64,000 bases of DNA, taken from positions 3,763-67,762 of the IMG/VR virus record IMGVR_UViG_3300029922_000054; one strand, 5' to 3'. The notes beneath the pieces were generated by a model, which made no database searches, was not told the origin of the DNA, and was given only the letters and a program-made list of their open reading frames with translations. This document shows positions 748 to 61,518 of the stretch, one piece after another. Origin of the DNA: a virus. A program made the position numbers and the translations under genes. Position 1 is the first letter of the stretch; each line of letters begins with the position of its first letter.

Positions 748-936
748 TGTCTTTCGAGTCCTGTCAGAACAGCTTAGTCTGGAGATCCTCAGCCGGCTTC
801 TCGACGGGCTTAGTCTTTCCATAACACTCTCGGCAGTATTGCGGTCGGCCGCCGGATACCGCCCAGATGGTGTCTTTTCCGCACTTTTTGCAGTAGATTG
901 ATGCCTCGACCGTCGTTTTGGTAAAGAAGTGTCGCA

Positions 937-1173
937 TCACATTTCCTCAGTCCTGCACCGATGATCGTCCCCCATCGGCATACACCGTTTGTGGCAATCG
1001 CAGGTACAGCGCAGTGAGAAGCACGTCCCGTGATGATTATTCCCACATGCGGCCGTCACGAATTCCGAGGGATCGCCATCCAACTCAGGAAGAACAACCC
1101 TCCGCCTCGCCCGCACCTTGCGCCCCTGCGCCACACTCGCGCGCCCTCTTGCACGTTTCAACATGTCCGTCAT
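937..1173 (-). CDS. Hypothetical protein (Cys/His-rich C-terminus)
   Basis: 78-aa ORF directly after 1183..1647 with GAGGG upstream. Confidence 0.45.
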   Translation of the reverse strand: MTDMLKRARGRASVAQGRKVRARRRVVLPELDGDPSEFVTAACGNNHHGTCFSLRCTCDCHKRCMPMGDDHRCRTEEM

Positions 1174-1182
1174 CGTTCCCTC

Positions 1183-1647
1183 TCAGAGTCCTGTCGAAGC
1201 ATTTGATTGTTGGCGCTCACGCTTTACTGCATCGCAGAGAGTCTTGACGGCTGCGCTTGCAGGCTTGTAGAAGTCAACATCCTGCGAGCCAATAGCCTCG
1301 GCCACGAGCAACTTTATGTGATAGCTTTCGCTGGCATCCAAGACAGGAATAATAAGTCGAGAAACTTCAGTTTCGTTGGAGCGATGGATCTGCGCCATTG
1401 CCGCTTGATAGGATTCAAAGATTTGCTTTGAGAATCCGAGCAGTAGGAGAGTCAGATCGTCGTAAGAGACCATCGCTCCCCCATGCTTCCGATACACCCC
1501 AGCCATACTTAGGAAGGAACGTACCCTGCTGAGCGCATTTTCCCGAGCTATATTGAACTGCATCATGGCGCCTGAAGCCGTTCTCGGCGCCTCAAACTGG
1601 TCCTTTTCGGCCAGCTTCATCAAGAACTCACGAAACACATCGTCCAT
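1183..1647 (-). CDS. Hypothetical protein
   Basis: 154-aa ORF, GGAGG RBS upstream, protein-like helical composition. Confidence 0.65.
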   Translation of the reverse strand: MDDVFREFLMKLAEKDQFEAPRTASGAMMQFNIARENALSRVRSFLSMAGVYRKHGGAMVSYDDLTLLLLGFSKQIFESYQAAMAQIHRSNETEVSRLIIPVLDASESYHIKLLVAEAIGSQDVDFYKPASAAVKTLCDAVKRERQQSNASTGL

Positions 1648-1686
1648 CGTTCCTCCACGCCCGCAGGCGCACTGCCTAGACCTCGC

Positions 1687-4621: not shown

Positions 4622-4748
4622 CCTCCGCCGCGCGGTACTTGCCGTAAGCGGTAGCGTCCGGTCGATCACCGGCAAGCCAGGCGAAAGATGGCACCCATTC
4701 GCAGGACTCACGAGGGTCCTGCCAACCTCTTTACCGGGAGGCAACACC

Positions 4749-4934
4749 ATGGCATCACGACGCACAATCTTTGCTCGTCCTGGAAGCGCACTTCGCGCCG
4801 CTACAAGCAACAATCCCCGCAATCTCCCGTGCCCCACGTGCGGCAAGCCCAACAAGCTCACGCCGGCCGATGTGCGCCGCGGCTACCAATGCGACGAGTG
4901 CGCCGGCCGTGAAGAAGGGTTCGGTTGCTGCTGA
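4749..4934 (+). CDS. Small zinc-finger protein
   Basis: GGGAGG RBS; CPTC...CDEC motif. Confidence 0.65.
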   Translation: MASRRTIFARPGSALRAATSNNPRNLPCPTCGKPNKLTPADVRRGYQCDECAGREEGFGCC

Positions 4935-5015
4935 ATCACTCCCACAGGACTCTGACCATTTGAGTCCTGCCAACCTCAACCGGCACCATCAACCTCTTTT
5001 ACAGGAGAGACGACA

Positions 5016-5666: not shown

Positions 5667-5973
5667 ACCGGGCAGGCTTGCCCTGCCTAGGATGTCGAAG
5701 CCTGGGGCACCATGAAACCTTGGGCGGTGGTACCACAGTAGCTCTGCTTCATGGGAAACAGACTACGTGAAATACCCGGCATCCTAGGGAGCGCAAGATA
5801 CTCCAGAATTGAGGAACCAAATGACCATTCTTGTCCTGTTGTTCTCGCTGTTGCTGCATGTTCACCCAGTCGGACCCGAGCCCAGTCGCATCGGCGTCCA
5901 TGTCTGCCATCCCTCAACTGTTACCACCCAATCCGTTCGCAGGACTCTCTAGGTCCTGTCGAGGAGCGCAACC

Positions 5974-10214: not shown

Positions 10215-10639
10215 AGAGTTTCCACATCAGCGATGTTTTGAGCGTCACCACAGGGAGGCTAGTGTCCTGCCGCCACATGGAAGGGATCTACGACATCCTC
10301 AACTTCCTCACTGGCGACAATCTGTTCACTCACCAGTTACCGCGCGCTGGCCGCGAATGTGAGCCGTGGTTGCGCACTCAATTCCCTCAGTTGTTCCCGG
10401 ATCAGCCGTTGATAGCTCTCGCCCTGACTCGTCTCGATGAGTTAATGGAAGATGGCGACACGCGAGAGGACCGAGCCGCAAAGATAACCAAGTGGGTAGA
10501 AGAACTGCGCACCGTTCTAGAGTTGCCAGAGCAGATCCCCGTTTACGAGATGGACGAAGAGATGCACACCCACATTGACCCCGTAGAAGAACTTGGCGCT
10601 ATGATAGGCGACCAGAAAGTCATCAAGGTGCAGTTATGA
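10211..10639 (+). CDS. Conserved phage hypothetical protein
   Basis: DVLSVTTGRLVS...YDILNFLTGDNLFTHQLPRA motif; AGGAG RBS. Confidence 0.7.
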   Translation: MKSFHISDVLSVTTGRLVSCRHMEGIYDILNFLTGDNLFTHQLPRAGRECEPWLRTQFPQLFPDQPLIALALTRLDELMEDGDTREDRAAKITKWVEELRTVLELPEQIPVYEMDEEMHTHIDPVEELGAMIGDQKVIKVQL

Positions 10640-11946
10640 CACGTCCAGTTCCACCCCTCACGCAGACATTGAGTAACGAGATGAGTTGCGAATACGGATA
10701 CTCCCTCGTGGAGATCCAAGGCCTGAAGACGCCGAGCACACCCGCCAGTTGGCGCGGCACAGACATTCATGAAGCTCTGGCGCCCTACGCCATGCACTGC
10801 GCACAGAAGCACGTCCCCGCAGACTTCATGTTCCTCGACTCGCTCACCAGCAGCCTGGGAGAAGAGGCCGCAAGCATTCTTGAGTCCTGCCGCGACAATC
10901 TTACAATCGATTGGCAGAACCTGTTTGCCTGCGAGATTCTGTGCGGACTTGACCGCGACTTTCAGCCCACCTATGCAATCGACCATGATGGCAAGCCCCA
11001 GCCCATCAATCATGTGTGGGGATTGGACGCCAACGGAACCGAACCATCTTACTGCGGGACACTGGACGTGATCTACCTCATGCCCGGCGGCAAGGTTGCG
11101 CGCATCGTGGACTGGAAGAGTCACCCGCGGCCATTCGATGCCGACACCATCCAGGGCAAGATGTACAGCCTATTTCTGTTCATGCACCTGCCCGAGTTGA
11201 CCGAAGTTGAGTTTGGGCTCCGGTTCGTGCGCTATCAAAATGTGACCAAGACACACAAATACTTCCGCTCTGACGTGCCGCAGATGATGGAGGACGTTCG
11301 CAGGACACGCAATCGGCAGTTGGACATTCACCGCAAGGTGGAAGAGGGCGGCGAACTGCGGTGCCATGGTGGCTCTCATTGCGTTTACTGCCCGTGCGCC
11401 ATCGACCCCATCGGCATCCCCTGCCCCAACGGTGCGCTGAATCCGATGCTCAAGAGTCCTGCGGAGATGCTGAACTGGATGCTGTCGACCGAGGTTCAGT
11501 TGCGCCAAGTGAAGGACGCGCTCAAGCAGTTCGTCGACGGGACTCAGGAACCAGTCGTGAGTATCGACGCGAACGGAAAGGCATATACCTACGGTCCGAA
11601 GCCACGCGAGAAGGTCACCTATCCGCTGTTCGAGGGCAGTCTCGAAGAGGGCTTCAACATGCCCATCCTCGATGCACTGTTGGACTGGGTGAGGGCCAAC
11701 CCGAAAGACTTGGTTCCGCGTAAGGGCAGCCAGCCGTGGTTCAACAATCTCGCCATCGGCGCGACGAAGCTGAACAGCTATCTCAAGGCCAACAAGCGCG
11801 AGATACTGCACAACAGCATTCGCGGACTGGCAAAGATTGAGACGGTCGTCCAGTTGGGAATTACGCGAGACGCCAGTGTGGACGATGGCCAGGGCTCCGA
11901 GTATCACACCTGGGATGCGTCCGGGGATGAGTTGATTGATTTCTAA
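10636..11946 (+). CDS. PD-(D/E)XK exonuclease (Cas4/AddB/RecB-like)
   Basis: GTDIHEAL, GTLD...IVDWKS catalytic motif, N-terminal Cys plus C-terminal CxxCxC..C (Fe-S-like). Confidence 0.8.
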   Translation: MTRPVPPLTQTLSNEMSCEYGYSLVEIQGLKTPSTPASWRGTDIHEALAPYAMHCAQKHVPADFMFLDSLTSSLGEEAASILESCRDNLTIDWQNLFACEILCGLDRDFQPTYAIDHDGKPQPINHVWGLDANGTEPSYCGTLDVIYLMPGGKVARIVDWKSHPRPFDADTIQGKMYSLFLFMHLPELTEVEFGLRFVRYQNVTKTHKYFRSDVPQMMEDVRRTRNRQLDIHRKVEEGGELRCHGGSHCVYCPCAIDPIGIPCPNGALNPMLKSPAEMLNWMLSTEVQLRQVKDALKQFVDGTQEPVVSIDANGKAYTYGPKPREKVTYPLFEGSLEEGFNMPILDALLDWVRANPKDLVPRKGSQPWFNNLAIGATKLNSYLKANKREILHNSIRGLAKIETVVQLGITRDASVDDGQGSEYHTWDASGDELIDF

Positions 11947-11950
11947 CAGT

Positions 11951-12047
11951 TTGCGCGGCTTTACCGGGGTAAGCAGGACTGCCCGCTAGATTGAACGTCC
12001 TTTGCTCGGCTGAAACCTGAGCGTCGCAATCTAGCCCGCGCAATTCA
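11951..12047 (+). ncRNA. Structured intergenic element
   Basis: Stems TTGCGCGG/CCGCGCAA (11951-58/12036-43) and GCTAGATTG/CAATCTAGC (11985-93/12027-35), with inner hairpins. Confidence 0.5.
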
Positions 12048-12064
12048 ATTCTAAGGAGAATGCT

Positions 12065-12229
12065 ATGAAGATTCTCGGAATGTATTTCATGAAAGGTCCG
12101 ACGGCTTACGAGTTCCAGGCTGGCAGACTAGGGATACGAATCTGCCATCTCTGGGGCGGCTATTGGAATACCATCGCGCACAATCTCCGTTATCGAGTCA
12201 CCTTCTATTGGTGGCCGAAAGAGTTCTAA
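12065..12229 (+). CDS. Small hypothetical protein (54 aa)
   Basis: AAGGAG RBS; MKILGMYF...WWPKEF*; sits between two structured elements. Confidence 0.55.
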   Translation: MKILGMYFMKGPTAYEFQAGRLGIRICHLWGGYWNTIAHNLRYRVTFYWWPKEF

Positions 12230-12233
12230 CAGT

Positions 12234-12370
12234 TCGTGGGGCTACGGCCTGTAGAAGAACAGGACCCTCTGGGGGAGACGACCCTGGATATGAAATGTGA
12301 GGATCGTTCCGAACGTGCTCCCGTAGCGGCTTGACCGGCTAGAGCGTTCGCCTCACAGCCCCACGATTCA
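12234..12370 (+). ncRNA. Structured intergenic element
   Basis: Perfect 10-bp closing stem TCGTGGGGCT/AGCCCCACGA (12234-43/12357-66); inner stems CCTGT/ACAGG, TGTGAGG/CCTCACA and CGAAC/GTTCG. Confidence 0.5.
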
Positions 12371-12405
12371 CCCGCCTCCCGCCAGAGGCAAACAGAAAGG
12401 GAATC

Positions 12406-14307
12406 ATGCAAATCGCCGCAATAGCGCTCAAGAACTTTGGAATCTGCGAGGAAACCGAACTCGCATTTGACCAGCCGCTCAACATCCTCATCGGTGAGCA
12501 CGCAAACGGAAAGACAACCGTCGCCAACGCCATTCGCCTTAGCTTCACACAGCGTGCCGGCAAGACCACCGACCGCAAAGGTGGAGGCGCCATGGACAAC
12601 GTGAGACTCGGTGCCAAGAAAGCCGAGATCACCACTATCGTGGAGACAGCCAAAGGACCACTCCAGATCTTCACGACGTATGGGCCGGGAGCATCACGCA
12701 GGAATCAAAACATCACTGCAGGTGAAGGAAAGGGAGACGGCGCGGGTCCTGTCGCAGCCTTTGAGCACTTCCTCGACCGGCAATCTGAGGCGCTGTCGTG
12801 CGTCCTTGATTCCGCTTACTTCTTCGACGCCAAGACGCCACAGAAAGACATTCTGGCCGCGCTGATCCTGCCTGCATCGCACGAGTTCGACGCCGAGAAG
12901 ATTGCGCTCGTCGAGAAGCACCTGGGCAAGTTTGTATGGACGAAGAGCCCTGTTGCCGTCATCGACCAGGTGTACAGCGCGGCCTACAGCGCCCGGAAGG
13001 ATGCCAAGGCCGCTCTGGGGGCCATCTACATACCGACGCAGCCACAGCGGCCCGAATACGACGCCGAGCACGTACAGGAGCAGATAGCGTCCTGCCGCGC
13101 TACCGTCCAGAAGGAAGCCAAGAAGATCAAGGCGGGAGGTACGGTCCAGATCGGCCGCATCGAGCAGAGTCTGGAGCAGGAGAAAGAGAAACTGGCAACG
13201 GCGCGCACCGACTATGCCGAGGCCAGGAAGCGTACCGGCGAGATCGACCAGGCTATCCTCGACGCGCCGAACCTCAAGAAAGCCGAGCGTGCAGCCGCCG
13301 GCAGGACTCTCTGGAACCAACTCCAGGAGCAGATTCACGAGTTTGTACGCGAGATCACCGCGCAGCAAGAGGCACAGGAGATTTACCGCGACCTGGGCTC
13401 CAACCCGCATTGCCCAACTTGCACACAGAAGATCACCAAAGAGTTCATCGCTGGCAAGGTGGAGGAGCACAAGAAGCTGGAGGACGAAGCGCGCACGGCC
13501 AAGCTGAGCGTGGAAGCCGAGCAGCAGGGCCTGGGCGACCTCGCCGAAGCAGAGGCCGTGATTGCCACCCACAAGGCGCTGACCGAGAAGAAGCTCCAGA
13601 ACGTCAAAGACGTGGCCGATGCAACAGGACGCATCGAAGGGTTGGAGCGGTCGCTCCAGCAGCTTGAAACAGCACTTCTAAATGCCAAAGCGCAGGAGAC
13701 GGCACCAACCGACACCAGCGCCCTAGACGCAGCCCAGAATGAACTAAGCACTTGGGAAGCTCGTTTGAGTCCTGCGCTGAACTACGATGCAACCCTGGTT
13801 CAGATTGAACAGGCTACGGCGCGCCAGAAAACACAGAAAGAAACGGTAGCGGATCTCGAAACGCTGGTAGCCTACTTCGGCGACAAGGGCATCAAGGCTG
13901 ACCTGATCGCTGAAGGTTCGGCGCACTTCATGGCGACCGTCAACGGCGTGCTGGCTGCCTGGGGCTACGAGGCCAAGCTATCAGATGAGGCTGACAGCTT
14001 TAGCGTCCTGACGCCGAGTGGATGGCTGCCGACAAAGCAGCTCTCAGGCTTCGAGGAGTTCATGTTCCGGGTGGCGCTCCAGTGCGCGATTGCCGTTCAC
14101 TCCAAGCTCAAGATAGTGGTGATTGACGAGGCGCAGGACATTATCGACGCGCACAGGACCCGGCTGTTCAAGGCCGTCCAGGGGATGCTGAGGGATGGTC
14201 TGCTCGACGAGGCCTTCATCATCATGGCGGATAACCGCGATACGGTTCCTGTCAAAGAGGGGATCGCGTACTACCGCATGACCAATGGCACTGCTACGAG
14301 GCTCTGA
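12406..14307 (+). CDS. Rad50/SbcC-like SMC-family ATPase
   Basis: Walker A GEHANGKTT, long coiled coil with a CPTC zinc hook, signature LSGFE, Walker B IVVIDE. Confidence 0.85.
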   Translation: MQIAAIALKNFGICEETELAFDQPLNILIGEHANGKTTVANAIRLSFTQRAGKTTDRKGGGAMDNVRLGAKKAEITTIVETAKGPLQIFTTYGPGASRRNQNITAGEGKGDGAGPVAAFEHFLDRQSEALSCVLDSAYFFDAKTPQKDILAALILPASHEFDAEKIALVEKHLGKFVWTKSPVAVIDQVYSAAYSARKDAKAALGAIYIPTQPQRPEYDAEHVQEQIASCRATVQKEAKKIKAGGTVQIGRIEQSLEQEKEKLATARTDYAEARKRTGEIDQAILDAPNLKKAERAAAGRTLWNQLQEQIHEFVREITAQQEAQEIYRDLGSNPHCPTCTQKITKEFIAGKVEEHKKLEDEARTAKLSVEAEQQGLGDLAEAEAVIATHKALTEKKLQNVKDVADATGRIEGLERSLQQLETALLNAKAQETAPTDTSALDAAQNELSTWEARLSPALNYDATLVQIEQATARQKTQKETVADLETLVAYFGDKGIKADLIAEGSAHFMATVNGVLAAWGYEAKLSDEADSFSVLTPSGWLPTKQLSGFEEFMFRVALQCAIAVHSKLKIVVIDEAQDIIDAHRTRLFKAVQGMLRDGLLDEAFIIMADNRDTVPVKEGIAYYRMTNGTATRL

Positions 14308-16582: not shown

Positions 16583-16652
16583 CGTGGTACTCTCGCTCGT
16601 GCGTGGAGGCAGGACTCTTATTGGCGGTAGGGGTCCTGCCAGCGGCACCACG
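16583..16652 (+). ncRNA. Putative c4/CI-like three-stem antisense RNA
   Basis: Closing stem CGTGGT/ACCACG, a small hairpin, and a 13-bp stem (16608-20/16628-40) with loop TTGGCGG complementary to three downstream CCGCCA sites. Confidence 0.45.
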
Positions 16653-17280: not shown

Positions 17281-17629
17281 GGATGTGATTGCAACCATCC
17301 AAAAGATCGCAGAGAGCCCGCGGCGTGACCGGGAAACCGCGTGTCCTGACTTCGGTACGCTTCTGGTGGCCGTCCGGTCCATCCGGCATCCGCAACGGCA
17401 TCTGCGCGAGATTGTGTGCCGTCTGGCGCGCATCTACGGTGTGATTGTAGACGAGGAGATGTTGACCGAATACGAGGCCGAAGCAGGACACAGAACAGAC
17501 GATGACTTGGACAAAGCTCTTGGAGTCCTACGGGGCGATGAGAATCTGAAGCGGATGCCGACGCCGGCACAGTTTCGGGCAGCCTGCGGGATTCCTAAGG
17601 TCTACCGGGATGGGACGAGGCCAGAGTGA
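17102..17629 (+). CDS. Putative helicase loader / replication protein
   Basis: Two helical repeats ending CPDFG and MPTPAQFR, as in G39P/lambda-P-like loaders; overlaps the initiator 3' end. Confidence 0.5.
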   Translation: MVDRTALQRRQNAQLMQSEPLSPKQQIIVALGTLALMRGGEYSQATLTAFSEGLLKEPFEDVIATIQKIAESPRRDRETACPDFGTLLVAVRSIRHPQRHLREIVCRLARIYGVIVDEEMLTEYEAEAGHRTDDDLDKALGVLRGDENLKRMPTPAQFRAACGIPKVYRDGTRPE

Positions 17630-18756
17630 GCAAGCCTATTTGCTATGACGGGTACTGCGTACTTGGGGGCTGGAGCGAAGGATTTCTCTCTGAAGGATAC
17701 CGATGCGTAGGCTTCGACATTGAGGCACACGATTATGGGACCGGGGGCTATCCCGGCGAACTGATACTACGCGACATGCGCCAGGTTCATGGAAGCGAGT
17801 TGAAGGACGCGGCGTGCCTTGTGTTTTCTCCTCCCTGCCAGGAGTACAGCTACATGGCGATGCCGTGGAGTCGCTCAAAGCAGATAGCTAGGGCGTTGCA
17901 GGGGAAAGATGAGTTCCCGGAAGGATACAGCGGATCGCGCTCCGTCGAGCAACTGAACGAGTTATTCAACACATGCTTCCGCATTCAGCGCGAGGCGTGC
18001 GAAGCCGCAGGACACTACATCCCGATGGTGATCGAGAACGTGCGCGGGGCACAGAAGTGGGTCGGCCGGGCGAAAGCGCACTACGGATCGTTCTTCCTGT
18101 GGGGAGATGTGGGCATGGTCGGGAACCGGGTGGTAGCGATCGTTAACGGTAAGATACTGGGGCGCGGAGTGGCACCAATACGAGCTCAGAAGTTCAACCC
18201 AGACGGGACTCAGCACGGGGCCGGATCATGGTTTGCAATTGCCAATAGCCAAAACAGAGGCGCAAATGCTGAGAAGGTGCCCAGTTTCCGCTTCGATGGC
18301 AGCGGCGGTTCGTTTCAGAGTGCGGCAGTGGAAACAGTCGGTCGCAGTCTGAGCAAGGGCGCTTTGAAGTGGGGACCGCACAACATGGGTCCGGGCGAAG
18401 AGATGATGGCCGAGATTGCAGCTAACCAGCGGGAGAGCGATGCGGTGAAAGGGGACGGCTCAGGATGGACGGAGAAAGGTTCGCTCAAGTCGCACAATCG
18501 GCTGGTGGCGAATACTGGCGTGAAACAGCACGGGAGTGGAGCGGCATGGTGGGATGACGCACTCAATGAACGCAGAAAGGAAGCCACTGCCGTCAAGAAT
18601 GGCGGTGATTGGTTCGGTTCAGGAGATAACGCATATGAGCAACGCAAGCACGGCAGTAAGTCTAGCTCTCGCAAGGCCGCATCCGCGCTGATCGCCAAGA
18701 TTCCATTCGCACTCAGCCAATACATTGCTCAATCGTTCAAGCCGGAGGAAGCGTGA
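17626..18756 (+). CDS. DNA cytosine-5 methyltransferase-like protein
   Basis: Degenerate motif I (YCVLGGWSEG), GFDI, catalytic SPPCQ, VIENV. Confidence 0.7.
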   Translation: MSKPICYDGYCVLGGWSEGFLSEGYRCVGFDIEAHDYGTGGYPGELILRDMRQVHGSELKDAACLVFSPPCQEYSYMAMPWSRSKQIARALQGKDEFPEGYSGSRSVEQLNELFNTCFRIQREACEAAGHYIPMVIENVRGAQKWVGRAKAHYGSFFLWGDVGMVGNRVVAIVNGKILGRGVAPIRAQKFNPDGTQHGAGSWFAIANSQNRGANAEKVPSFRFDGSGGSFQSAAVETVGRSLSKGALKWGPHNMGPGEEMMAEIAANQRESDAVKGDGSGWTEKGSLKSHNRLVANTGVKQHGSGAAWWDDALNERRKEATAVKNGGDWFGSGDNAYEQRKHGSKSSSRKAASALIAKIPFALSQYIAQSFKPEEA

Positions 18757-47600: not shown

Positions 47601-48005
47601 CGCACTGAGATCGATGGGGACTGTCACAGACAAGGAATAATTTACGGCCCATGGCGGTTGATAGGTAAGTATTTGCGTGCTCGTCGGATAGGAAATCGAG
47701 ATTGCCCATCGAGTGCCAGATGGATTCGAGAGGATGTTATTCGGAACCAACTGGATTGAAAAGTGTCCTGTCGCATCCAGAGTCGCCTGAACCTGCTTGG
47801 CATTGAAAAGCTGACCATTCGGAGTAGATGCACTCGACACTGGGTAGCCTGCCGAGTTGACCAGATTAGCAGTCAGAGCCGCATTCGCATAGGGATTGCC
47901 GTTCGGGTCAGTGACCGTCGCCGTGACGGTCGAGTAGCTAACCTGGGCGAAAGACCCGGTTGCCGTTCCAAACATGACTGCCAGCAGGACAAGAATTTTG
48001 CGCAT
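44610..48005 (-). CDS. Tailspike-like beta-helix protein with a LamG/ConA-like domain and an N-terminal signal peptide
   Basis: GAGGAG RBS; MRKILVLLAVMFGTATGSFA|Q; repeated I.GN/I.NN/ISDN rungs; H.A......LYLDG...VGA...GDI. Confidence 0.7.
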   Translation of the reverse strand: MRKILVLLAVMFGTATGSFAQVSYSTVTATVTDPNGNPYANAALTANLVNSAGYPVSSASTPNGQLFNAKQVQATLDATGHFSIQLVPNNILSNPSGTRWAISISYPTSTQILTYQPPWAVNYSLSVTVPIDLSAQISALTQPINFLNLITGQNTLGGGSGGAGTWFSITGGTQTGSGTRQVNTFPGTVAAPASRIGKVIQLPGGVQSAGTLASFLLTYGANATYVLPPDYSETITSTIALSQNDVMIDCKPGSVLINGTASSAVMVITGTNDTIGAGCKLDNNNVPIYNYGQATLDLQGSTNTVLNGVTVVNCYSINAMPSCVSAININGGKFNGMNLGGTSSAGMEIVAAGGSGNPGNGVSQNFEVIGGNMGTLAIVVLPISGTGSTDGVIKNFRVADVNLRAVGGDATCGNVGIYSGSAGLGSVLNGTVMGTTCTISGTASPTVSNVVISGSGSTGTITLTLGVATPFWAKEYVTLSGFSTFTCLNGKDLPTTSTSGTSVSFSTNGTTCTTGSGADTGIAKAAIFGGWSNVAGDGFIFSGNTVQLAPGTSQYIQYAAYEMSCTNCTVTHNVFETPDAYAQTYGCIISYAENAIISDNICNGFGAHARGIGLVGGIVLTRASDDVQILNNAIINAAADNTDAGSGGIGFGCHTSSGSTQRGKISGNHIYGPFARGMDIGDSSSDHTCPVEFSASDNQIYGAKTGYEIYTATGSVSNTFFSGVTTPFHTSSFTPETITSNTPQSLPSGSTAVTQMVTDASNNLATDAFVAGWISGQTNVLPFPYGIANGPQTAPPYSPAAWYPASSTCSTTGTTPTTLIDASGNGNTLTGTGATCQMNVYNGKPALRLAGSGTGYQGPFGTAFTAGTTIITIYKKTVGASGFLVDDYVSAATNSIYFNPSTSINARYNSISLSSTVADDNAVHVAAYTISSTGIGTLYLDGVQVATGAQGTAAGYLNGITVGARQDRNSPWNGDILDTLAYGSALTATQLQSFSQYATSQYGLVLPGTWSIVNGVARFASEYVGGNPVVACPAGGTGAQYCSASQVWTTPAAAIPVRAGTWSISAATSAAVIFATPMSAAPTSCSVPPSASSAATGQPFPTSPLTTGFTVNVPVSGTIAGTYSCTSNNAN

Positions 48006-48019
48006 CTCGATCTCCTCGT

Positions 48020-50779
48020 TTATCCAGGGTTCCCTGGCCATGTTGGAATGACCATCAAATTTGACTTGTAGACCATCCACCATGCACCGGCTACTCCTCC
48101 ATTATCCATCCCGACAGCCCAGCGTGTTGAATAGGACTGTGCGCCCTGAACTGGCATTGGGATATTGACCTGGGTGCGCTGGCCGGGAGTCAAGAGGATT
48201 GGCGTCAATGGCCCGGTGAGCAGATATGCGTTCTCCTGGTCATCGTAGGCCTTCACGTTCCAGAGTCCATTCCCAGTCCCCCACATCTGCGCGCCGATGA
48301 GCTTATCAGCGGTCAAAGCGTCTTTCTCTCCAAGCACTCCACGCCACTCCGCAAAATATCCGAGTTGAGTCCCGTCGTAGTCCTCGTCGAAGTATTGGTC
48401 TTCGACCACGTTCTTGATTGAGCCATCGGCCGCAAAGAAGAGCATCTGGTTCTCAACATTTACTCCAGCCAACTGGACAGCATTCTTGGACTTTTGCGGG
48501 ATGTAGAGCGCGTCATTGAAGTTCAGCGTGTCCTGCGACCACTTGCGACCATCGGCTTTAGGTACCAACTTTCCGCTGCGAGTCTCGAACATGACAGGAT
48601 CACCCGTACCAAAGTAATAATTCACGACTAGGCGGCAGTTGATTGTCGTCGAACCGTTGATAGGGCACAGGACATAAACGAGCCGCCTCACCTGATCGAT
48701 CTTTACTTTGACGATGTGGCCATAGTCCCAATTGATCGTTTCCCAGGCTACTAGCTGTTCTCGGCTGATGAGAGTCGGATGCTGCCCGGCAAAGAGGTAT
48801 AGTCCGCTTCGGTGAGCCCACACCGCAAACTCTGAATCGTCCTGTCCTGCTACGTCAATCGCTTGTGCTCCGACCGGCCCGTTTCCGCTCCATGATTGCC
48901 GTGGCGTCCATGTAGATGGATCACCTCCGTTCGTAATGACTTCGAATCCCGAGTTTTCCTTGAAGGAGTATCCAATGCCGCGGATTTCCCGGTAGCATAC
49001 GGTCCTGTCGCCGTCATTCTCCGAGACCTGGAAGTTTCCGCCTGGCACGCGCACTGTCTCCGCATCGGTAATATCCGAGAAGAGATGGCCGCTCTGGTAT
49101 CCCACTGATCCCGTGTAGACCGTGCGCTGGAGCGTCTTGGCAAAGTACACGTCCACCGATGGAGGGATCTGGATCTTGTTGAAGTAGTTCGTGACGCTCG
49201 ACGCGCCCGGCAGATACGTGTCCGTGAAGTTGAACAGGGCCGTGGTCGATGTATTGTCCTCAACAATGGTCGCTGTAATCGTCACGTTGGGCTGGTTGAA
49301 TCCCGGCGATTCAATGTCTGCCTGGGAAATCCATGTGAGAGGACCCGCCGCGCTGGCGCCGGCCACAGTCGATGCGACAATGCGGGAGTTCCAGTTGTAA
49401 GGTCCAATTGGCAGCCGCAGACACTGAATAGGCCATCCAGACTGAGTTACGTTCAAGGCGACAGGACCCGAGTTCGAGAATCCTGTCTGGTACATTGAGT
49501 TCGTCTGACCGAAAACTGTGAGATAGCGGACACCCGTATCCACGTTGCCAATCGTCGCCGTTGTGGCCGCCGTGCTCGTTGTGGAGAGCTGCACGCCTGT
49601 TGGGTAAGCCGAGATGGTAACGGTCGCTCCTGGGAGCACTGGCGCAGGATTCACCAGCGCGTAATAAGCGGCATCGATAATCTCGCTTGTCGTTGCGCTC
49701 GAATCTGGATCAATAAAGGCGTAGAGGTTAAATTCTGTGGCTCCATAGGTCGCACCAAGTGACCCGGTAACTGCCACATAGTCCGGTATAGCAGGAAGCG
49801 TCACAGAAAGATCTACAGGTCCGCCTGTTGTATTTTTCCAGGTCAATACACGCTTGGGATCAAGATTGCCTTTGACGTCAACCAGCGAGTTCACGCCTTC
49901 GCCAATCGTATTGAGCATCGTTGCTGCGAGGTACACCGTTGCACCGTCAGCAATCGGAGATGCTGCATCGGCCGTTGTCGATCCAAAAATAGGCACAGAG
50001 GCATCTGGCAGCCCTGAAATGAAAATAGGTGTGCATTCTTTCCATTTTGTGGTGTTGTCGTCAACGGTTCCATCGATCACCGTGGGCCATGCAGGCTGGC
50101 TAGCGGAATTCCCGCTCGTACCTGCCGTCGTGCATTGGTAGACGAAACCTGTTTGATCTTCAACCCATGTTCCCTGGCCTCCAGTCTGCCCAAACGTCTG
50201 GAACGTGGATGGGGAAACGACTTGGCCGACACGATAGTAGGTGTCTGGATTCCATGGCGCGGCGAATGGAAGGTCTGAAGCCGGGTAAAGCGTTGAATCG
50301 GCCGAATTGTAGATCAGGACAGGACCCTTGGGAAGAAGTAGGTCTGTCAAACCAATGAGGAAGTTATTGAATGCTTGCCCCATGGTGGGGTTGAGTCCTG
50401 CCGAGATCGTAATACCAGAATTGGTTGTGAAGTTGGCAGTGTTGAGGACCGCCATTGCGGACTGAATGAATGGTGGGCAGGAAAATAGTGATCCGGTCAC
50501 CGATCCATACGCAAAGATCAGGATGGTCTCAACGGCTTGCAGGTTGAGCGTCCCTGGTTGAGCGGCGAGATACCGAAGCAGGCCGCCGCCCGTCAAGGAG
50601 TCGTTCTGGCCAAAGGTAAGTTGGGTCGAATGCCCAAAACGTGCGGCAACGGATCGCGCCGTGTACCGCACATTTTGAGCAACTTTCGCCAACCCGAGAG
50701 GCAGGTTCACTGAATCGTCATAGCTGCATGACGAGCCGTACCGCGGAATGACTATCGGCTTACTGCCTTCAAAGTTCAC
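48020..50779 (-). CDS. Tail tubular/nozzle (stabilisation) protein
   Basis: 919-aa beta-rich protein starting AQNVR; downstream of the adaptor, as in P22 gp10/T7 gp12 gene order. Confidence 0.6.
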   Translation of the reverse strand: MNFEGSKPIVIPRYGSSCSYDDSVNLPLGLAKVAQNVRYTARSVAARFGHSTQLTFGQNDSLTGGGLLRYLAAQPGTLNLQAVETILIFAYGSVTGSLFSCPPFIQSAMAVLNTANFTTNSGITISAGLNPTMGQAFNNFLIGLTDLLLPKGPVLIYNSADSTLYPASDLPFAAPWNPDTYYRVGQVVSPSTFQTFGQTGGQGTWVEDQTGFVYQCTTAGTSGNSASQPAWPTVIDGTVDDNTTKWKECTPIFISGLPDASVPIFGSTTADAASPIADGATVYLAATMLNTIGEGVNSLVDVKGNLDPKRVLTWKNTTGGPVDLSVTLPAIPDYVAVTGSLGATYGATEFNLYAFIDPDSSATTSEIIDAAYYALVNPAPVLPGATVTISAYPTGVQLSTTSTAATTATIGNVDTGVRYLTVFGQTNSMYQTGFSNSGPVALNVTQSGWPIQCLRLPIGPYNWNSRIVASTVAGASAAGPLTWISQADIESPGFNQPNVTITATIVEDNTSTTALFNFTDTYLPGASSVTNYFNKIQIPPSVDVYFAKTLQRTVYTGSVGYQSGHLFSDITDAETVRVPGGNFQVSENDGDRTVCYREIRGIGYSFKENSGFEVITNGGDPSTWTPRQSWSGNGPVGAQAIDVAGQDDSEFAVWAHRSGLYLFAGQHPTLISREQLVAWETINWDYGHIVKVKIDQVRRLVYVLCPINGSTTINCRLVVNYYFGTGDPVMFETRSGKLVPKADGRKWSQDTLNFNDALYIPQKSKNAVQLAGVNVENQMLFFAADGSIKNVVEDQYFDEDYDGTQLGYFAEWRGVLGEKDALTADKLIGAQMWGTGNGLWNVKAYDDQENAYLLTGPLTPILLTPGQRTQVNIPMPVQGAQSYSTRWAVGMDNGGVAGAWWMVYKSNLMVIPTWPGNPG

Positions 50780-58263: not shown

Positions 58264-58272
58264 ACCTTTGAT

Positions 58273-60696
58273 CTAGCTCCCCTGCTGCCCCGGCGCTCCC
58301 TGCCCCGCCCCGTTCTTCGCTCCCTTGTTTGCCTGAGCCTGCATCGTGAGCGCATTGGCTGCAGCGGCCTCCTTCGCCATCTGTGAACTGATGGTGAGAT
58401 AAGCCAGCACGTTGCCGTAGCCTTTTGGATTCGTTTCCTGCTGCTCCCAATTGGCGAGCAACCACGATTTTGCCTCACTTGCGCAAATGGCCGGGTCATC
58501 CACATTCGACTCAGGAATGATCGACGGAACCACGACAGGCGGTCCCTGAGGATTCGCTGGGTTCGGTTGCGCAACAGGACCATTGGGGTCCTGCGCCAGC
58601 CGGTGAATGATCTTCTCGATCTTGGACAACTGCGCATCGAGCGGCAACTTGATCTCTGGCGGCAAGAGGTATTGCGCCATGACGCGCTGGATCTTCGGAT
58701 CGGCAAGCATCTGAGCCACGATCGGCATCTTCTGGTTTTCAGCCAGGAGCTGCATGAGTCGGGCCTGAATCTCTTGGTAGGTTGCCGGGAATCCTGCATC
58801 CGACTCGGGATAGGTGAAGAAGTCGCCAGAGAGTTCCGCTTTGAGCATCCTGATCGTCTTCCAGGAGTTCTGCGTCTCGCCCTCTTCGACGATCTTGATT
58901 TCCTCGTCCATGTTCTGGACAGAGCACTTCACCGAGAGCCGCGCCGCGTCCGCATCCTCGCCGCGCATCTGGTCGATGTACTGCTTCAGTCTACCGAGAG
59001 CTGTATTGAGAGCTTGCTCCTGCCCGGCTGCTGTCTCGACATGCTTGTCTGATCCGCCAAACACCTGGGGCATCACTCCGCATAGGAACTGGGCACGGGT
59101 GGTTAGGTTGTCGGCGTACTTCCAGATTTCAGGGTCAGGCTGGAAAGTGAAGTGGTGGAACAGGTCAGACATGGGCGTGCGCTGGCCGGTCTCTTCGTCG
59201 GTCCTGCTGACGCCTGTAAGGTTGCCCGGTGTCGCAATCTTGTTCTGCAGGGCATTGCCGTCGATGGCATCTGCGTCGAAGAATCCCGCACCGAAAGCGA
59301 TGCGGTCGGCATAGGCTTCAATCTTATTGACGATCTTGGTGACGCGCTCCTGCACGTCCAGAACGACTTTGCCGGCGGCGAATGGGTAGGCTCCCAGGCC
59401 TTTGATTGTTCCGCACCATGTCCAGTGATCCTCTTTGGCCTCATTCACGGCATCGAGGAAAGTGTCTTGGCCACACAGGACCAGCTTGCAGCCTTTCGGA
59501 TACCGGGCGGCCAGCTCCTTAGCCAGCGTCTCGTCTTCAAGTTCATTGAAGGCCACGACGTCGATCCAGCATCTGCTGTACGTGACCAGTCCGTCTGTGG
59601 TGATGACGCGCGCGTTGGATCCAGGCGTCGTCTGCTGCTGGCGCCCACGCTTCGCCGCATCCCCGTCTACCGCGGAATCGCTGCCCATCGTCGCGGCAAT
59701 GGCGGAATACATGGCAGGATAAGCTGCTCTGACTTTGGCGGCCGACAGCTCGATGGTGTAGTCAAGAATTTCTGTGTCGGCAATGGGGTCATCAAGAGCG
59801 TCTGGATTCACGTCAACCATCAGGCCGTTGGCGATCGTGAAGGCCGTCATTCCGTTTGCCTGCTCAATCTCGCCTACCTTGACAGGAAGATCGAGCAAAT
59901 CCCCTTCAAACCAATCCTTCTGATTGAGGGGTGCTCCGCAGTTGGAGCATACCGGGTGTGATGAAAAAGGTGTGATTCCTGCGTCTGGATTGAACTTTCC
60001 ACAGTTCGAGCAAATATAACCGTCTGGAGTAACTTTCGTCGGCTTCGTCTCATATTGAGGCGTGAACGATGTGCCGGCTTTCTTCTGGTCGATGGTGTAC
60101 CGCGTGTACCGAAAGAATCCGCCGCAGGTCCAAAGATAGAGCAGCTTCAACTGGTGCAGAGATGCGATCTTGTTCTTGCGCTCATTGAACGCCTGGATGG
60201 TTGATGCCTTGTTGGCGATCTCCAGATCCTGATAATCCTCTGCATTTGCCGGCTGGTACCGCACTTTTCCCAAATCCACCATCAGGGCCGCGATGAAGAT
60301 CATCATGAACGTCTGGTAGATGTTGTCGTTGTGTGCGTATAGGTCCGGATCTTCCCCTTGTCCAAGGAATCCTGCCATGAGCTGATTGATCGTGTCGAGG
60401 GCGGCCGACTGGTCGTTGAGCAGGGCAAACGTGCTGCCACGGATTGCTTCGAAGGCTCGTGTGGCTTCTGAGACGAATCTCCTGCGCTTTGGCTGATACC
60501 GCTGTTTGAATGTCGTCCGCAGTTCGATCAGCGCGGCTTGGCATCTCTGGTCGAGTTCCGCATTGGCGGCAACCTCTTCGCCCGTAAGCTCCTGGGGAGC
60601 GTCTGCGGTTGGGTCGGAACTTTGCGCAGGACTCGCGCCTGAACCACTGGCGTTCAGTTGCTGCATTGCGCTCTGCGGGGCCGCTGCGGTCGCCAT
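58273..60696 (-). CDS. Portal protein (P22-like) with a zinc-ribbon insertion
   Basis: 807 aa; NIY..., D.E.A..A, ETAAGQEQALN.A; CSNCG...CSNCG insert; upstream of scaffold and capsid. Confidence 0.75.
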   Translation of the reverse strand: MATAAAPQSAMQQLNASGSGASPAQSSDPTADAPQELTGEEVAANAELDQRCQAALIELRTTFKQRYQPKRRRFVSEATRAFEAIRGSTFALLNDQSAALDTINQLMAGFLGQGEDPDLYAHNDNIYQTFMMIFIAALMVDLGKVRYQPANAEDYQDLEIANKASTIQAFNERKNKIASLHQLKLLYLWTCGGFFRYTRYTIDQKKAGTSFTPQYETKPTKVTPDGYICSNCGKFNPDAGITPFSSHPVCSNCGAPLNQKDWFEGDLLDLPVKVGEIEQANGMTAFTIANGLMVDVNPDALDDPIADTEILDYTIELSAAKVRAAYPAMYSAIAATMGSDSAVDGDAAKRGRQQQTTPGSNARVITTDGLVTYSRCWIDVVAFNELEDETLAKELAARYPKGCKLVLCGQDTFLDAVNEAKEDHWTWCGTIKGLGAYPFAAGKVVLDVQERVTKIVNKIEAYADRIAFGAGFFDADAIDGNALQNKIATPGNLTGVSRTDEETGQRTPMSDLFHHFTFQPDPEIWKYADNLTTRAQFLCGVMPQVFGGSDKHVETAAGQEQALNTALGRLKQYIDQMRGEDADAARLSVKCSVQNMDEEIKIVEEGETQNSWKTIRMLKAELSGDFFTYPESDAGFPATYQEIQARLMQLLAENQKMPIVAQMLADPKIQRVMAQYLLPPEIKLPLDAQLSKIEKIIHRLAQDPNGPVAQPNPANPQGPPVVVPSIIPESNVDDPAICASEAKSWLLANWEQQETNPKGYGNVLAYLTISSQMAKEAAAANALTMQAQANKGAKNGAGQGAPGQQGS

Positions 60697-60700
60697 CTGT

Positions 60701-61183
60701 CTACGCTCTCTCTGCTTGTTCGATTCGGGCTAAGATTTCGGGAGGAACTGGCTTTGTTGGCTGTTTTGTCTCCAGTGTCCCAACAGTGCCGATTTGTGGG
60801 GTCCTGCCGGCTACCTCTTGCGCTCTTGAAATCTGGCCTCTGACCCGCTGGACCCACTGAGAGAGTTCAATCGGCGTAAGCTGCCTGCCAAACTCCTGTG
60901 CAGCCAGTTCAGCCATGACAAAGGGATTGTTCGGATCGACATTCGCCCAATCGACTTCCTGGGGTTCCTTGTGTACGGCAGGACTCGGCGCGTTCGCTTT
61001 CCTATGCCGCACGACTGCCGGCTGGACAAGTGCAAAGTTTTCGGGGAGATTCACGGAAACAGAGACAGGTTCTGCGAGCCGTTCGGCCAGGACAGCGTTC
61101 TGCGCCTCAAGCGAGAGGATCAGAGCATCCTTGGCCGCGACGACTTCCTGATGATGTTCGCGGCTTATCCAGGGCAGTTTCAC
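60701..61183 (-). CDS. Hypothetical protein
   Basis: GTG start just after the upstream stop; N-terminal coiled coil. Confidence 0.55.
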   Translation of the reverse strand: MKLPWISREHHQEVVAAKDALILSLEAQNAVLAERLAEPVSVSVNLPENFALVQPAVVRHRKANAPSPAVHKEPQEVDWANVDPNNPFVMAELAAQEFGRQLTPIELSQWVQRVRGQISRAQEVAGRTPQIGTVGTLETKQPTKPVPPEILARIEQAERA

Positions 61184-61185
61184 GT

Positions 61186-61518
61186 TTATGGCCACTCGCT
61201 GACGCGTACTTTGGTGTCGGCGCCCATTGACTCGACTTGGCAATAGACCGTGGCCGCGCCGCCGCCGTTGTTGTAGTTGGCCGGAACTCCCTCAATTGGA
61301 CCACGCCCAATATGGGTTTTGTCGCCGATGGTGATTGGCTGCTGGGCAGGAGGATATTCAGAGACGCTGCCATTCGGCCAGGTTACTTTGAGTCCTGCGG
61401 CAGATCCGGACCCGTCTTCCGCGATCTCGACATAGCTGGAGAAGGCTTTGGCGATCAGGTTGACCTGGGCCGCGCTTGTGACAACTTGTGGGGCTTGAAC
61501 GAGGGGACCGTAGGCCAT
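61186..61518 (-). CDS. Hypothetical (possibly virion) protein
   Basis: GGAGG RBS, TAATG overlap, 110-aa beta-type sequence. Confidence 0.6.
   Translation of the reverse strand: MAYGPLVQAPQVVTSAAQVNLIAKAFSSYVEIAEDGSGSAAGLKVTWPNGSVSEYPPAQQPITIGDKTHIGRGPIEGVPANYNNGGGAATVYCQVESMGADTKVRVSEWP

What the first reader, a model, noticed from the sequence alone, without database searches (positions are those of the whole stretch)
756..61397. An asymmetric DNA word, GAGTCCTG(Y)/(R)CAGGACTC, recurs about every 1.2 kb across the phage genome
Seen: exact 8-mers at 756, 1186, 4145, 4222, 4702, 4945, 4962, 5330, 5444, 5940, 7786, 7857, 9117, 9529, 10103, 10882, 11454, 13302, 13767, 16076, 16610, 16977, 20399, 24020, 24953, 25412, 25556, 25979, 28723, 29644, 31651, 32839, 35971, 36532, 36676, 37588, 38032, 38208, 38592, 40217, 41405, 42302, 43614, 44110, 50393, 52543, 53298, 54407, 57871, 58150, 60627, 60979 and 61390 (about 53, manual count). 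Base composition at ~58% GC predicts 2-3 on both strands. All but three extend to GAGTCCTGY. About 100 further copies keep the core GTCCTGY (GGGTCCTG, GTGTCCTG, AGGTCCTG and others) against ~20 expected. The word occurs in both orientations, in genes on both strands, and in different frames (read as SPA, AGL/TGL, QDS, ESC), so amino-acid demand does not explain it. Known analogues: Chi sites (RecBCD/AddAB), DNA uptake sequences, cyanobacterial HIP1, KOPS/matS, and asymmetric 6-mers of BREX/type IIG/III methylases (CAGGAC has A at position 5, as in BREX sites). Inference: a self-marking or protein-loading system. Candidate readers or writers on this genome are the virion-delivered N6-MTase/helicase giant protein, the C5-MTase-like gene, and the SSAP/exonuclease/Rad50 module. 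It could instead mimic a host Chi-like signal.
Basis: partly seen in the sequence, partly recalled or inferred. Interest (0 to 1): 0.9.

Follow-up and report, generated by a model that had tools for sequence, protein, structure and literature searches.

The report
Hyper-abundant DNA word in peat phage
A nine-base DNA word (R-CAGGAC-N-C) is written into this uncultured peat phage and its relatives about twenty times more often than chance, is kept by selection at silent codon positions in either orientation, and is most likely a genome-wide recognition signal whose reader is still unknown.

Summary
GAGTCCTG/CAGGACTC occurs 53 times in the window against 2.4 expected, 50 of the 53 extend to Y, and 102 further GTCCTGY copies occur against about 20 expected.

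The signal is in the DNA, not the proteins. With every protein sequence and every gene's codon usage held fixed, 40 copies are seen against 2.0 ± 1.4. 40 of the 92 places where the 8-mer could be written silently carry it, equally in sense (24/55) and antisense (16/37).

The word is R-CAGGAC-N-C with graded tolerance. It is spread at random spacing over all modules and shared by at least five related IMG/VR phage genomes. Silent sites inside it are conserved, 81-86% against 54-64%.

No reader and no host were identified. None of 660 sampled bacterial genomes comes near the phage density.

Best guess (0.3): a Chi-like identity and protection signal for a helicase-nuclease. A phage-encoded DNA-binding reader is nearly as likely.

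This scan already reported the same word in a related phage (e1-3271234). I found nothing on it in print.

The parts
756..61397 (.). Dispersed array of 53 exact 8-mers. GAGTCCTG on + at 756, 1186, 4145, 4222, 4962, 5330, 5444, 7786, 9117, 10882, 11454, 13767, 16977, 25412, 25979, 28723, 29644, 31651, 32839, 35971, 36532, 36676, 37588, 38032, 42302, 44110, 50393, 52543, 54407, 61390. On - at 4702, 4945, 5940, 7857, 9529, 10103, 13302, 16076, 16610, 20399, 24020, 24953, 25556, 38208, 38592, 40217, 41405, 43614, 53298, 57871, 58150, 60627, 60979. In addition there are 122 further CAGGAC/GTCCTG cores (175 in the window).
   Evidence: selection shown
4702..4721 (+). Convergent pair GCAGGACTC-N5-GGTCCTGC. 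It forms a hairpin (-16.1 kcal/mol, z -4.4) about 28 nt before the ATG at 4749, and has no U tract.
4945..4969 (+). Convergent pair of two full 8-mers, CAGGACTC-N9-GAGTCCTG. Hairpin of -13.4 kcal/mol (z -4.4), upstream of the gene starting at 5016. It is followed by the same GCCAACCTC leader as the 4702 pair.
5940..5958 (+). Convergent pair GCAGGACTC-N4-GGTCCTGT before the gene at 5974. Hairpin of -14.2 kcal/mol, z -2.4.
16610..16638 (+). Convergent pair within a 15-bp stem, GGCAGGACTCTTATT...GGGGTCCTGCC (-24.4 kcal/mol, z -4.5). It lies in an intergenic stretch of the replication module.
58575..58593 (-). Pair ACAGGACC-N5-GGTCCTGC inside the 807-aa gene. Hairpin of -16.3 kcal/mol, z -2.6.
32317..32338 (-). 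Pair inside the giant gene, conserved in G001. Hairpin of -13.6 kcal/mol, z -2.8.
28126..39408 (-). Candidate reader or writer only (not shown to be one). 3760-aa protein with a Strawberry-notch helicase (AAA_34 and Helicase_C_4) and a sub-threshold N6_Mtase match. It carries 39 cores and 11 8-mers itself.
10636..14307 (+). Candidate reader only (not shown to be one). PD-(D/E)XK exonuclease (10636-11946) and SbcC/Rad50-like ATPase (12406-14307).
17626..18756 (+). Candidate writer only (not shown to be one). 376-aa protein with weak DNA-methyltransferase matches (PHROG E 1.8e-6; Pfam C5 MTase E 0.013, below cut-off). It holds 1 core in 1.1 kb.
44610..48083 (-). Word-poor stretch: 3 cores in 3.5 kb, no 8-mer, GC 0.514. 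This is a tail-fibre-like gene (Laminin_G_3). It lies within the longest gap between 8-mers (44110 to 50393).

Best explanation
R-CAGGAC-N-C is a selected, genome-wide recognition word on the phage DNA. The function I think most likely is a Chi-like identity and protection signal.

Proposed mechanism: a DNA-tracking helicase-nuclease enters at a DNA end or break and meets a correctly oriented copy within roughly 1-2 kb. It then stops degrading and switches to recombination or repair. The enzyme could be the host's RecBCD/AddAB class or the phage's own nuclease machinery.

Why the layout fits: if the packaged ends are permuted, or breaks fall anywhere, both orientations are needed everywhere and every extra copy helps. 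That would explain equal use of both orientations, even spread, near-saturation of silent slots, and slow turnover of single sites while density is kept.

Shown: the word is under selection at the DNA level, is neutral to orientation, is dense, and is conserved in the clade.

Inferred: that a nuclease-type enzyme reads it, who encodes that enzyme (I put host about 45%, phage about 55% within this reading), and that the genome ends are permuted.
For: - Asymmetric 8-9-nt word, over-represented about 20-fold. The consensus GCAGGACTC occurs 156 times against 4.6 expected in six genomes.
- Single-mismatch variants are mildly enriched (about 2-7-fold, up to 12.6-fold at the N position) rather than depleted. 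That is the graded profile of a protein reading sequence.
- Selection is for density. 40 of 92 silent slots are filled, against 0-2 of 25-54 for eight control words.
- Sites turn over with divergence. The wobble-conservation excess is 22-28 points with G001/G002 but only 7 points with G003/G004, while density persists.
- All modules carry the word.
- The phage shows strong avoidance of 6-bp palindromes, so its DNA is exposed to restriction cuts that would feed such nucleases.
- Precedent: passages of PMC3784561 report that phages lacking RecBCD inhibitors over-represent Chi (median O/E 2.3-4.8), with the strongest effect in concatemer-packaging P1- and T5-like phages.
- No RecBCD-inhibitor family was seen in the ORFs scanned. 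This is weak evidence, because many small ORFs have no family at all.
Against: - Over-representation (about 20x) and density (0.84 8-mers and 2.7 cores per kb) are far above what the paper reports for Chi in phages (O/E 2-5, 0.2 per kb).
- Chi acts in one orientation and in lambdoid phages is concentrated between origin and packaging site. Here there is no polarity at any scale and spacing is Poisson-like.
- The phage has its own exonuclease and SbcC-like genes.
- No genome with the word enriched to host-Chi or higher levels together with a plausible link was found in 660 sampled genomes. The best ratios are 4-5x over the reversed control, at no more than 0.06 per kb.
- In the best Acidobacteriota case (G009), the listed sites show no obvious co-orientation per contig.
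- Packaging mode is unknown. The 99-bp terminal repeat of G002 looks like an assembly overlap.
Confidence: 0.3

Rival explanations
1. Binding sites for a phage-encoded sequence-specific dsDNA-binding protein. This could be a genome-wide operator in the style of stoperators, or a coat, nucleoid-organising or loading protein. Single sites would be bound by monomers and inverted pairs by dimers. The protein marks, compacts, shields or regulates phage DNA.
For: - The word appears restricted to this lineage. A complete IMG/VR scan with an 18-nt inverted-pair pattern gave 26 loci, and only one (L061, a family member) is word-dense.
- It was not found in 660 sampled cellular genomes.
- Orientation neutrality is natural for dsDNA binding.
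- The tolerance profile looks like a binding matrix.
- Convergent pairs are 8 of 16 close pairs, where 25% is expected. Several sit just upstream of early-gene ribosome-binding sites with a shared leader.
- The same word is kept across the clade, as expected if reader and sites are inherited together.
Against: - No candidate protein was identified. Pfam and PHROG scans of about 60 ORFs gave no sequence-specific DNA-binding family apart from a weak Zn-ribbon in a 61-aa ORF.
- Filling about 44% of all silent slots in every gene has no precedent for a regulator.
- 136 of 186 cores lie inside confident genes.
Confidence: 0.27
2. Target site of a DNA modification enzyme of the phage, either the N6-adenine MTase domain of the injected giant protein or the 376-aa MTase-like protein. 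Density would be selected because more modified sites give more protection or a stronger 'own DNA' mark.
For: - The core is a 6-bp asymmetric word with A at position 5. From recall, this is the shape of MmeI-family and BREX sites.
- A giant virion-type protein with helicase and MTase-like motifs is present (first-reader note e1-6187739).
- The tolerance profile is sharp in the core C-A-G-G-A-C and loose outside it.
Against: - Known modification targets are not over-represented in the genomes that carry the enzyme, and restriction targets are avoided.
- Both MTase matches are below the Pfam cut-offs (E 0.015 and 0.013), and the MTase region has no PDB relative by sequence.
- Flanking positions R(-1) and C(+8) also carry information, which makes the word longer than typical sites of that class.
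- GANTC, which the 8-mer contains, is not enriched outside the word: 92 GACTC outside it, against 139.5 expected in all.
Confidence: 0.13
3. A host-determined word of another kind: an uptake-sequence-like signal, or another chromosome-wide word of the unknown host that the phage shares or exploits.
For: The layout matches uptake sequences best in form, by recalled features of Neisseria DUS and Haemophilus USS:
- about 1 per kb;
- either orientation;
- even spread;
- preferred reading frames in genes;
- inverted pairs between genes.
Against: - No cellular genome with such density was found among 660 sampled.
- A phage with no integrase among the ORFs scanned has no obvious route to accumulate uptake words by transformation bias.
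- No prophage relative was found in 185,579 species genomes.
Confidence: 0.1
4. Non-adaptive drive: a biased repair or gene-conversion process, of the very-short-patch kind, that converts near-matches into the word, with no reader-dependent function.
For: High occupancy of silent slots and conservation could in principle come from a strong conversion bias. HNH endonucleases and MTase-like genes are present.
Against: - One-step neighbours of the word are enriched, not depleted. Transition neighbours reach 2-7x, the opposite of what a process that consumes them predicts.
- A 20-30-fold excess of a 9-nt asymmetric word is far beyond known repair-bias effects (recalled).
- The excess costs moderately rare codons: AGG is 8% of Arg, AGT 10% of Ser and CCT 18% of Pro outside the word.
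Confidence: 0.07

Closest known systems
Chi sites (RecBCD/AddAB regulatory octamers) and their over-representation in some phages (PMC3784561; passages read)
   Same: A short asymmetric word, over-represented beyond composition and maintained by selection for density. It is found in phages as well as in cells, and could act as a self-mark against end-degrading nucleases.
   Different: The excess here is about 20x and 0.84 per kb, against O/E 2-5 and about 0.2 per kb. There is no orientation polarity and no regional concentration. The sequence is unrelated to any Chi I can recall. The host and reader are unknown, and no host genome carrying the word was found.
DNA uptake sequences (Neisseria DUS, Pasteurellaceae USS; features recalled, not from a call)
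   Same: About one copy per kb, either orientation, even spread, preferred frames inside genes, inverted pairs forming hairpins between genes, and conservation across a clade with site turnover.
   Different: Those are chromosomal words of competent bacteria, maintained by uptake bias. Here the carrier is an apparently lytic phage lineage, and no cellular genome with the word was found.
Stoperators of Cluster A mycobacteriophages (repressor-bound asymmetric 13-bp sites; recalled)
   Same: An asymmetric phage-specific site repeated all over the genome and conserved in a phage clade, with related sites at early promoters or leaders.
   Different: Stoperators number about 25-35, lie between genes and point one way relative to transcription. 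Here there are 57-186 sites, mostly inside genes, in both orientations with equal use of silent slots.
HIP1 of cyanobacteria (recalled)
   Same: A hyper-abundant octamer of unknown function that is kept by selection and also seen in phages of HIP1-rich hosts.
   Different: HIP1 is a palindrome and is a property of the host chromosome. This word is asymmetric and was seen only in the phage clade.
Earlier finding of this scan, e1-3271234 (hyper-abundant R-CAGGACTC in an uncultured soil phage)
   Same: The same word, the same consensus and the same conclusion: about 20x excess, selected, reader unknown, Chi the closest known.
   Different: That report states a lean towards one DNA strand whatever the gene direction. 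In this genome the mild strand excess (83:103 cores) follows the supply of silent slots and gene direction, not an absolute strand.

Membership tests
Chi site | Recognised by the host RecBCD/AddAB enzyme, which changes activity at the site | not testable with these tools
   The host is unknown and there is no biochemistry.
Chi site | Over-represented in the host core genome and co-oriented with replication | tested here: inconclusive
   Host not identified. Among 660 sampled genomes the best ratios are 4-5x the reversed control, at no more than 0.06 per kb. The listed G009 sites show no clear per-contig co-orientation. The sample is thin, about 0.3% of species.
Chi site | Orientation-dependent placement relative to DNA ends or the packaging site in phages | tested here: not met
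   83:103 cores and 24:33 8-mers by strand with no regional switch. Silent-slot use is 24/55 in sense and 16/37 in antisense. The same holds in + and - genes. This could still fit if the ends are permuted, which is unknown.
DNA uptake sequence | Present at about 1 per kb in the chromosome of a naturally competent host with a sequence-specific uptake receptor | tested here: inconclusive
   Not found in the genomes searched.
DNA uptake sequence | Orientation-neutral, evenly spread, with inverted pairs between genes | tested here: met
   on the phage genome only.
Stoperator / genome-wide repressor sites | Sites lie between genes and share one orientation relative to transcription | tested here: not met
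   136 of 186 cores lie inside 42 confident genes. Sense:antisense is 80:56 for cores and 24:16 for 8-mers, explained by slot supply.
Stoperator / genome-wide repressor sites | Bound by a phage repressor | not testable with these tools
   No repressor or integrase family was found in the ORFs scanned.
KOPS / AIMS-type polar words | Strand skew that flips at the origin and terminus | tested here: not met
   No flip in 4-kb bins.
HIP1-type palindromic words | Palindromic sequence | tested here: not met
   The word is asymmetric. The CAGGAC core is a mirror repeat, not a palindrome.
Restriction-modification / BREX target site | The site is methylated by a cognate MTase, and unmodified sites are attacked, so they are usually avoided | tested here: not met
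   The word is enriched 20x, not avoided. Methylation cannot be tested. The MTase matches are sub-threshold.
Codon or amino-acid by-product | The excess vanishes when protein sequence and codon usage are preserved | tested here: not met
   40 against 2.0 +/- 1.4. The supply of slots is barely above residue-shuffled proteins, 92 against 78.5 +/- 7.9.

The most novel reading that the evidence does not exclude
The phage clade carries its own identity code. A phage-encoded reader recognises R-CAGGAC-N-C and uses its density to tell phage DNA from host or competitor DNA. This would be the first virus-autonomous counterpart of Chi or uptake-sequence systems. A hint of dialect drift is that G004 and L142 also over-represent CGGGA variants.
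Probability: 0.3. Interest if true: 0.9.

Novelty: new variant of a known kind. Interest (0 to 1): 0.72.

Why it matters
Dispersed recognition words such as Chi, uptake sequences and HIP1 are among the few cases where a short sequence shapes a whole genome. All the well-understood cases belong to cellular chromosomes. Here, a clade of uncultured peat and soil phages fills nearly half of all silent coding slots with one asymmetric word. That implies a strong, continuing benefit and a sequence-specific reader not yet recognised in these genomes.

Either way the word is a simple marker for this phage clade in metagenomes, and the case is directly testable by DAP-seq, by methylation calling on long reads, and by synonymous recoding.

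Tried and rejected
**Codon or amino-acid artefact: rejected**.

**Polar KOPS- or Chi-like skew and regular spacing:** not seen.

**General selection for GANTC (the 8-mer contains GAGTC):** rejected. GACTC occurs 149 times against 139.5 expected, and 57 of those lie inside the word.

**T7-type primase site (contains GTC; recalled):** dropped, because the best-kept bases lie 3' of GTC.

**RNA-level signal:** dropped, because sense and antisense slots are used equally.

**Close cultured relatives:**
- None by megablast, or by tblastn of the capsid-like and terminase-like proteins, against 50,697 phage records.
- Only distant hits (23-36% identity) for the 428-aa protein.

**Prophage relatives in species genomes:** none (268 pattern hits, 0 confirmed).

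**Host search by the word:**
- The metagenome contigs direct-pair scan gave tandem repeats, chance hits and one 1-kb word-dense fragment with small ORFs (L382).
- Whole-genome counts covered 401 Pseudomonadota, 251 Acidobacteriota and 8 further genomes. None came near the phage density.
- G019, the best ratio, was followed up. Its multi-hit contigs are unrelated to the phage and not word-dense.

**More distant relatives:**
- The GroEL alignment scan returned only cellular-like GroELs of 31-36% identity and was useless.
- Single GroEL queries P0076 and P0065 found nothing in viral contigs.
- As a result, no word-free complete relative was available for a gene-presence comparison.

**Other dead ends:**
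- The G003 'provirus' label gave no host flank. The record is a permutation of the same genome.
- The MTase region of the giant protein has no PDB relative by sequence.
- Literature searches for the word as a token found nothing relevant, and one search found nothing useful.
- Supplementary tables of PMC3784561 (for example Table S5 on non-lambdoid phages) could not be seen and may bear on how extreme Chi excess can be.
- Sequencing-run look-up: the three best holders (shares 0.50-0.83) are labelled peat metagenome.

Full report
**Observation**

The window is bases 3763-67762 of a 67,762-bp single-contig virus record. The expectation from 100 dinucleotide shuffles is 2.43 (sd 1.55, largest 7).
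- 50 of the 53 are followed by C or T.
- 102 further GTCCTGY copies lie outside the 8-mer, against about 20.5 expected.
- Over the whole record, CAGGACTC is the commonest 8-mer (57 copies) and CAGGAC the commonest 6-mer (186 copies).
- Markov expectations for the 8-mer are 2.5-4.9 at orders 0-3. They rise to 11.4 at order 4 and 31.3 at order 5, where the model is fed the word's own sub-words.

**The signal is in the DNA**

I called 42 confident genes (79% of the record). In each gene I shuffled synonymous codons among identical residues, which keeps every protein sequence and each gene's codon usage. Results from 300 shuffles:

| Word | Shuffle mean ± sd | Shuffle max | Observed |
|---|---|---|---|
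| 8-mer | 2.0 ± 1.4 | 6 | 40 |
| 6-mer | 42.7 ± 5.4 | 56 | 136 |

I then counted every place where the proteins allow the word to be written silently.
- 40 of 92 such slots carry the 8-mer: 24 of 55 in sense and 16 of 37 in antisense.
- Eight control words of like composition fill 0-2 of 25-54 slots.
- For the 6-mer, 136 of 407 slots are filled. Four control 6-mers fill 6-33 of 146-212.

The supply of slots is hardly above that of residue-shuffled proteins (92 against 78.5 ± 7.9). Selection therefore works through silent choices rather than by changing proteins. It uses moderately rare codons: outside the word, AGG is 8% of Arg, AGT 10% of Ser and CCT 18% of Pro. The two dominant frames, xCA GGA CTC and xxG AGT CCT Gxx, both put word positions 2, 5 and 8 on wobble sites.

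**Anatomy of the word**

The profile was pooled over six genomes.
- The consensus GCAGGACTC occurs 156 times against 4.6 expected.
- Position 1 is R: G 34x, A 29x, T 3x, C 0.4x.
- The core C-A-G-G-A-C is tight. The best tolerated change is A3 to G, at 6.8x.
- Position 8 is loose: T 34x, A 13x, C 8.5x, G 6.6x.
- Position 9 prefers C.
- One-step neighbours are mildly enriched, not depleted.

This is the graded profile of a protein that reads sequence. It argues against a repair process that consumes neighbours.

GANTC, which is contained in the 8-mer, is not enriched outside the word. No other word family is over-represented. Many 6-bp palindromes are strongly avoided, for example CAGCTG at 4 against 72 expected.

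**Layout**
- Cores are 83 on one strand and 103 on the other, and 8-mers 24 and 33. There is no regional switch.
- Once slot supply is taken into account there is no orientation preference, in genes of either direction.
- Spacing is Poisson-like: CV 0.8-1.1, except for the 6-mer in G002 (CV 1.34, with one 5.2-kb gap).
- Nearly all genes longer than about 1 kb carry the word. A low-GC tail-fibre-like gene, the MTase-like gene and the terminase pieces are poor in it.
- Of 16 close pairs of cores, 8 are convergent, against 25% expected. Several of these form stable hairpins without U tracts just upstream of early genes, followed by a shared leader.

**Relatives**

The 807-aa structural protein finds related IMG/VR contigs at 63-91% identity.

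| Record | Size | 8-mers | Comparison |
|---|---|---|---|
| G001 | complete or near-complete | 49 | reversed-word control 1-3 |
| G002 | complete or near-complete | 49 | reversed-word control 1-3 |
| G003 | complete or near-complete | 33 | reversed-word control 1-3 |
| G004 | 69.8 kb | 35 | 2.8 expected |
| G006 | 27.8 kb | 23 | 1.5 expected |
| G005 | 15 kb | 2 (only a weak excess: GCAGGAC 10 against 2.3 expected) | - |

L137 (4.4 kb) shows no clear excess (4 cores, no 8-mer).

Sites are conserved at homologous positions.
- Against G002 (75% nucleotide identity), 15 of 25 aligned 8-mers are intact, compared with 13% of all 8-mers.
- Third-codon positions inside the 8-mer are identical in 86% of cases against 64% elsewhere (G001), and 81% against 54% (G002). 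This falls to 60% against 53% (G003) and 57% against 50% (G004).

So single sites turn over while density is kept. G004 and L142 also over-represent GCGGGA and ACGGGA, which may be a dialect.

**Host and habitat**
- The three runs that hold half or more of the sampled words of a 10-kb stretch are labelled peat metagenomes.
- No prophage relative exists in one genome each of 185,579 species.
They returned unrelated REP-like or tandem repeats, chance hits and one short word-dense fragment.
- Whole-genome counts in 401 Pseudomonadota, 251 Acidobacteriota and 8 other genomes found nothing near 0.84 per kb. The best ratios over the reversed word were 4-5x, at no more than 0.06 per kb. The best of these did not stand up on inspection.
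- This is about 0.3% of species, so the correct statement is 'not found in those searched'.
- A complete scan of IMG/VR with an 18-nt inverted-pair pattern gave 26 loci, and only one, a family member, is word-dense. The sensitivity of that scan is low.

**Genes**

The phage encodes:
- GroES and GroEL;
- a DnaB-like helicase;
- two HNH endonucleases;
- a PD-(D/E)XK exonuclease;
- an SbcC/Rad50-like ATPase;
- a 3760-aa protein with a Strawberry-notch helicase and a sub-threshold N6-MTase match;
- a 376-aa protein with weak MTase matches;
- an Acb3-like protein;
- outside the window, a ferritin/Dps-like protein.

No integrase, repressor, RecBCD inhibitor or tRNA was recognised, but most small ORFs match no family.

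**Interpretation**

What is shown is a dense recognition word that is neutral to orientation, selected, and conserved in the clade. What reads it is inferred.

I rank first, at 0.3, a Chi-like identity and protection signal for a helicase-nuclease. It explains selection for density everywhere. If ends or breaks fall anywhere, it also explains why both orientations are used equally. It has a precedent in phages (passages of PMC3784561). Against it are the tenfold larger excess than reported there, the lack of polarity, the phage's own recombination genes, and the missing host signal.

A phage-encoded dsDNA-binding reader is nearly as likely (0.27). It fits the restriction to this lineage and the operator-like pairs.

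The other readings rank lower:
- a modification target, 0.13;
- an uptake-like or other host word, 0.10;
- a non-adaptive conversion drive, 0.07.

**Comparison and novelty**

In form the word resembles uptake sequences most closely, and in plausible function Chi. It fails the tested defining features of stoperators, KOPS and HIP1, and it is the opposite of a restriction target.

I found no paper that names the word. The searches were for the 8-mers and degenerate forms as whole words (two irrelevant hits) and for the 6-mers together with 'motif' (irrelevant hits).

This scan had already reported the same word in a related soil phage (e1-3271234). My data agree with that report except for its claim of an absolute strand lean.

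I class the finding as a new variant of a known kind (dispersed recognition words). There is a fair chance (0.3) that it is a virus-autonomous system, which would be new in kind.

Noticed in passing
whole record; also G002, G003: There is strong avoidance of many 6-bp palindromes (CAGCTG 4 vs 72 expected, TCGCGA 6 vs 54, GAGCTC 6 vs 48, GGATCC 18 vs 63). The asymmetric CACCTC is also avoided (4 vs 33, and 5 vs 34 in G002). This suggests exposure to several restriction systems.
   Followed up: no
window 22567-22908 and 23404-25134 (+): There is a GroES and GroEL pair. The GroEL has dozens of 45-82% identical relatives on 66-72-kb metagenome contigs, whereas cellular GroELs are only about 36-38% identical. 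This points to a large uncultured phage group with its own chaperonin.
   Followed up: partly
window 52378-53061 (-): A 227-aa protein inside the structural module matches the Pfam family Acb3 (CBASS inhibitor) at E 1e-53.
   Followed up: no
L151 2742-3404 (-), i.e. G000 bases outside the window: A 220-aa protein has a ferritin-like (Dps-type) domain, E 8e-23, and an 80-aa N-terminal extension.
   Followed up: no
L152, L154, L172, L173, L194, L199 and L189, L197, L200: Planctomycetota MAGs and a Nanopelagicales MAG carry multi-copy REP-like palindromic elements whose stems contain GGCAGGACTCC. These are unrelated repeats that happen to share the word.
   Followed up: partly
L382 (1,072-bp metagenome contig): It holds six dispersed copies of the 8-mer in 1 kb, in both orientations, with small ORFs and no tblastx match to the seven family genomes. 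It is probably a fast-evolving early region of a further relative.
   Followed up: partly
G004 (L144-L147) and L142: A second over-represented word is present: GCGGGA (123 vs 56) in G004 and ACGGGA (13 vs 2.4) in L142. These are the main word with A3 changed to G, possibly a dialect.
   Followed up: partly
window 4749-4934 (+): A 61-aa ORF with weak zinc-ribbon matches (E 0.006) sits between two of the motif hairpins, which share the leader GCCAACCTC.
   Followed up: no
G002 ends: The 'direct terminal repeat' of G002 is an exact 99-bp overlap. This looks like an assembler's circular overlap rather than physical ends.
   Followed up: no
window 44001-48000: The tail-fibre-like gene region has lower GC (0.51 vs 0.57) and few copies of the word. 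This would be expected for recently acquired DNA.
   Followed up: partly
core word: CAGGAC reads the same backwards (a mirror repeat), so the genome tool's reversed-pattern control is uninformative for the 6-mer.
   Followed up: yes
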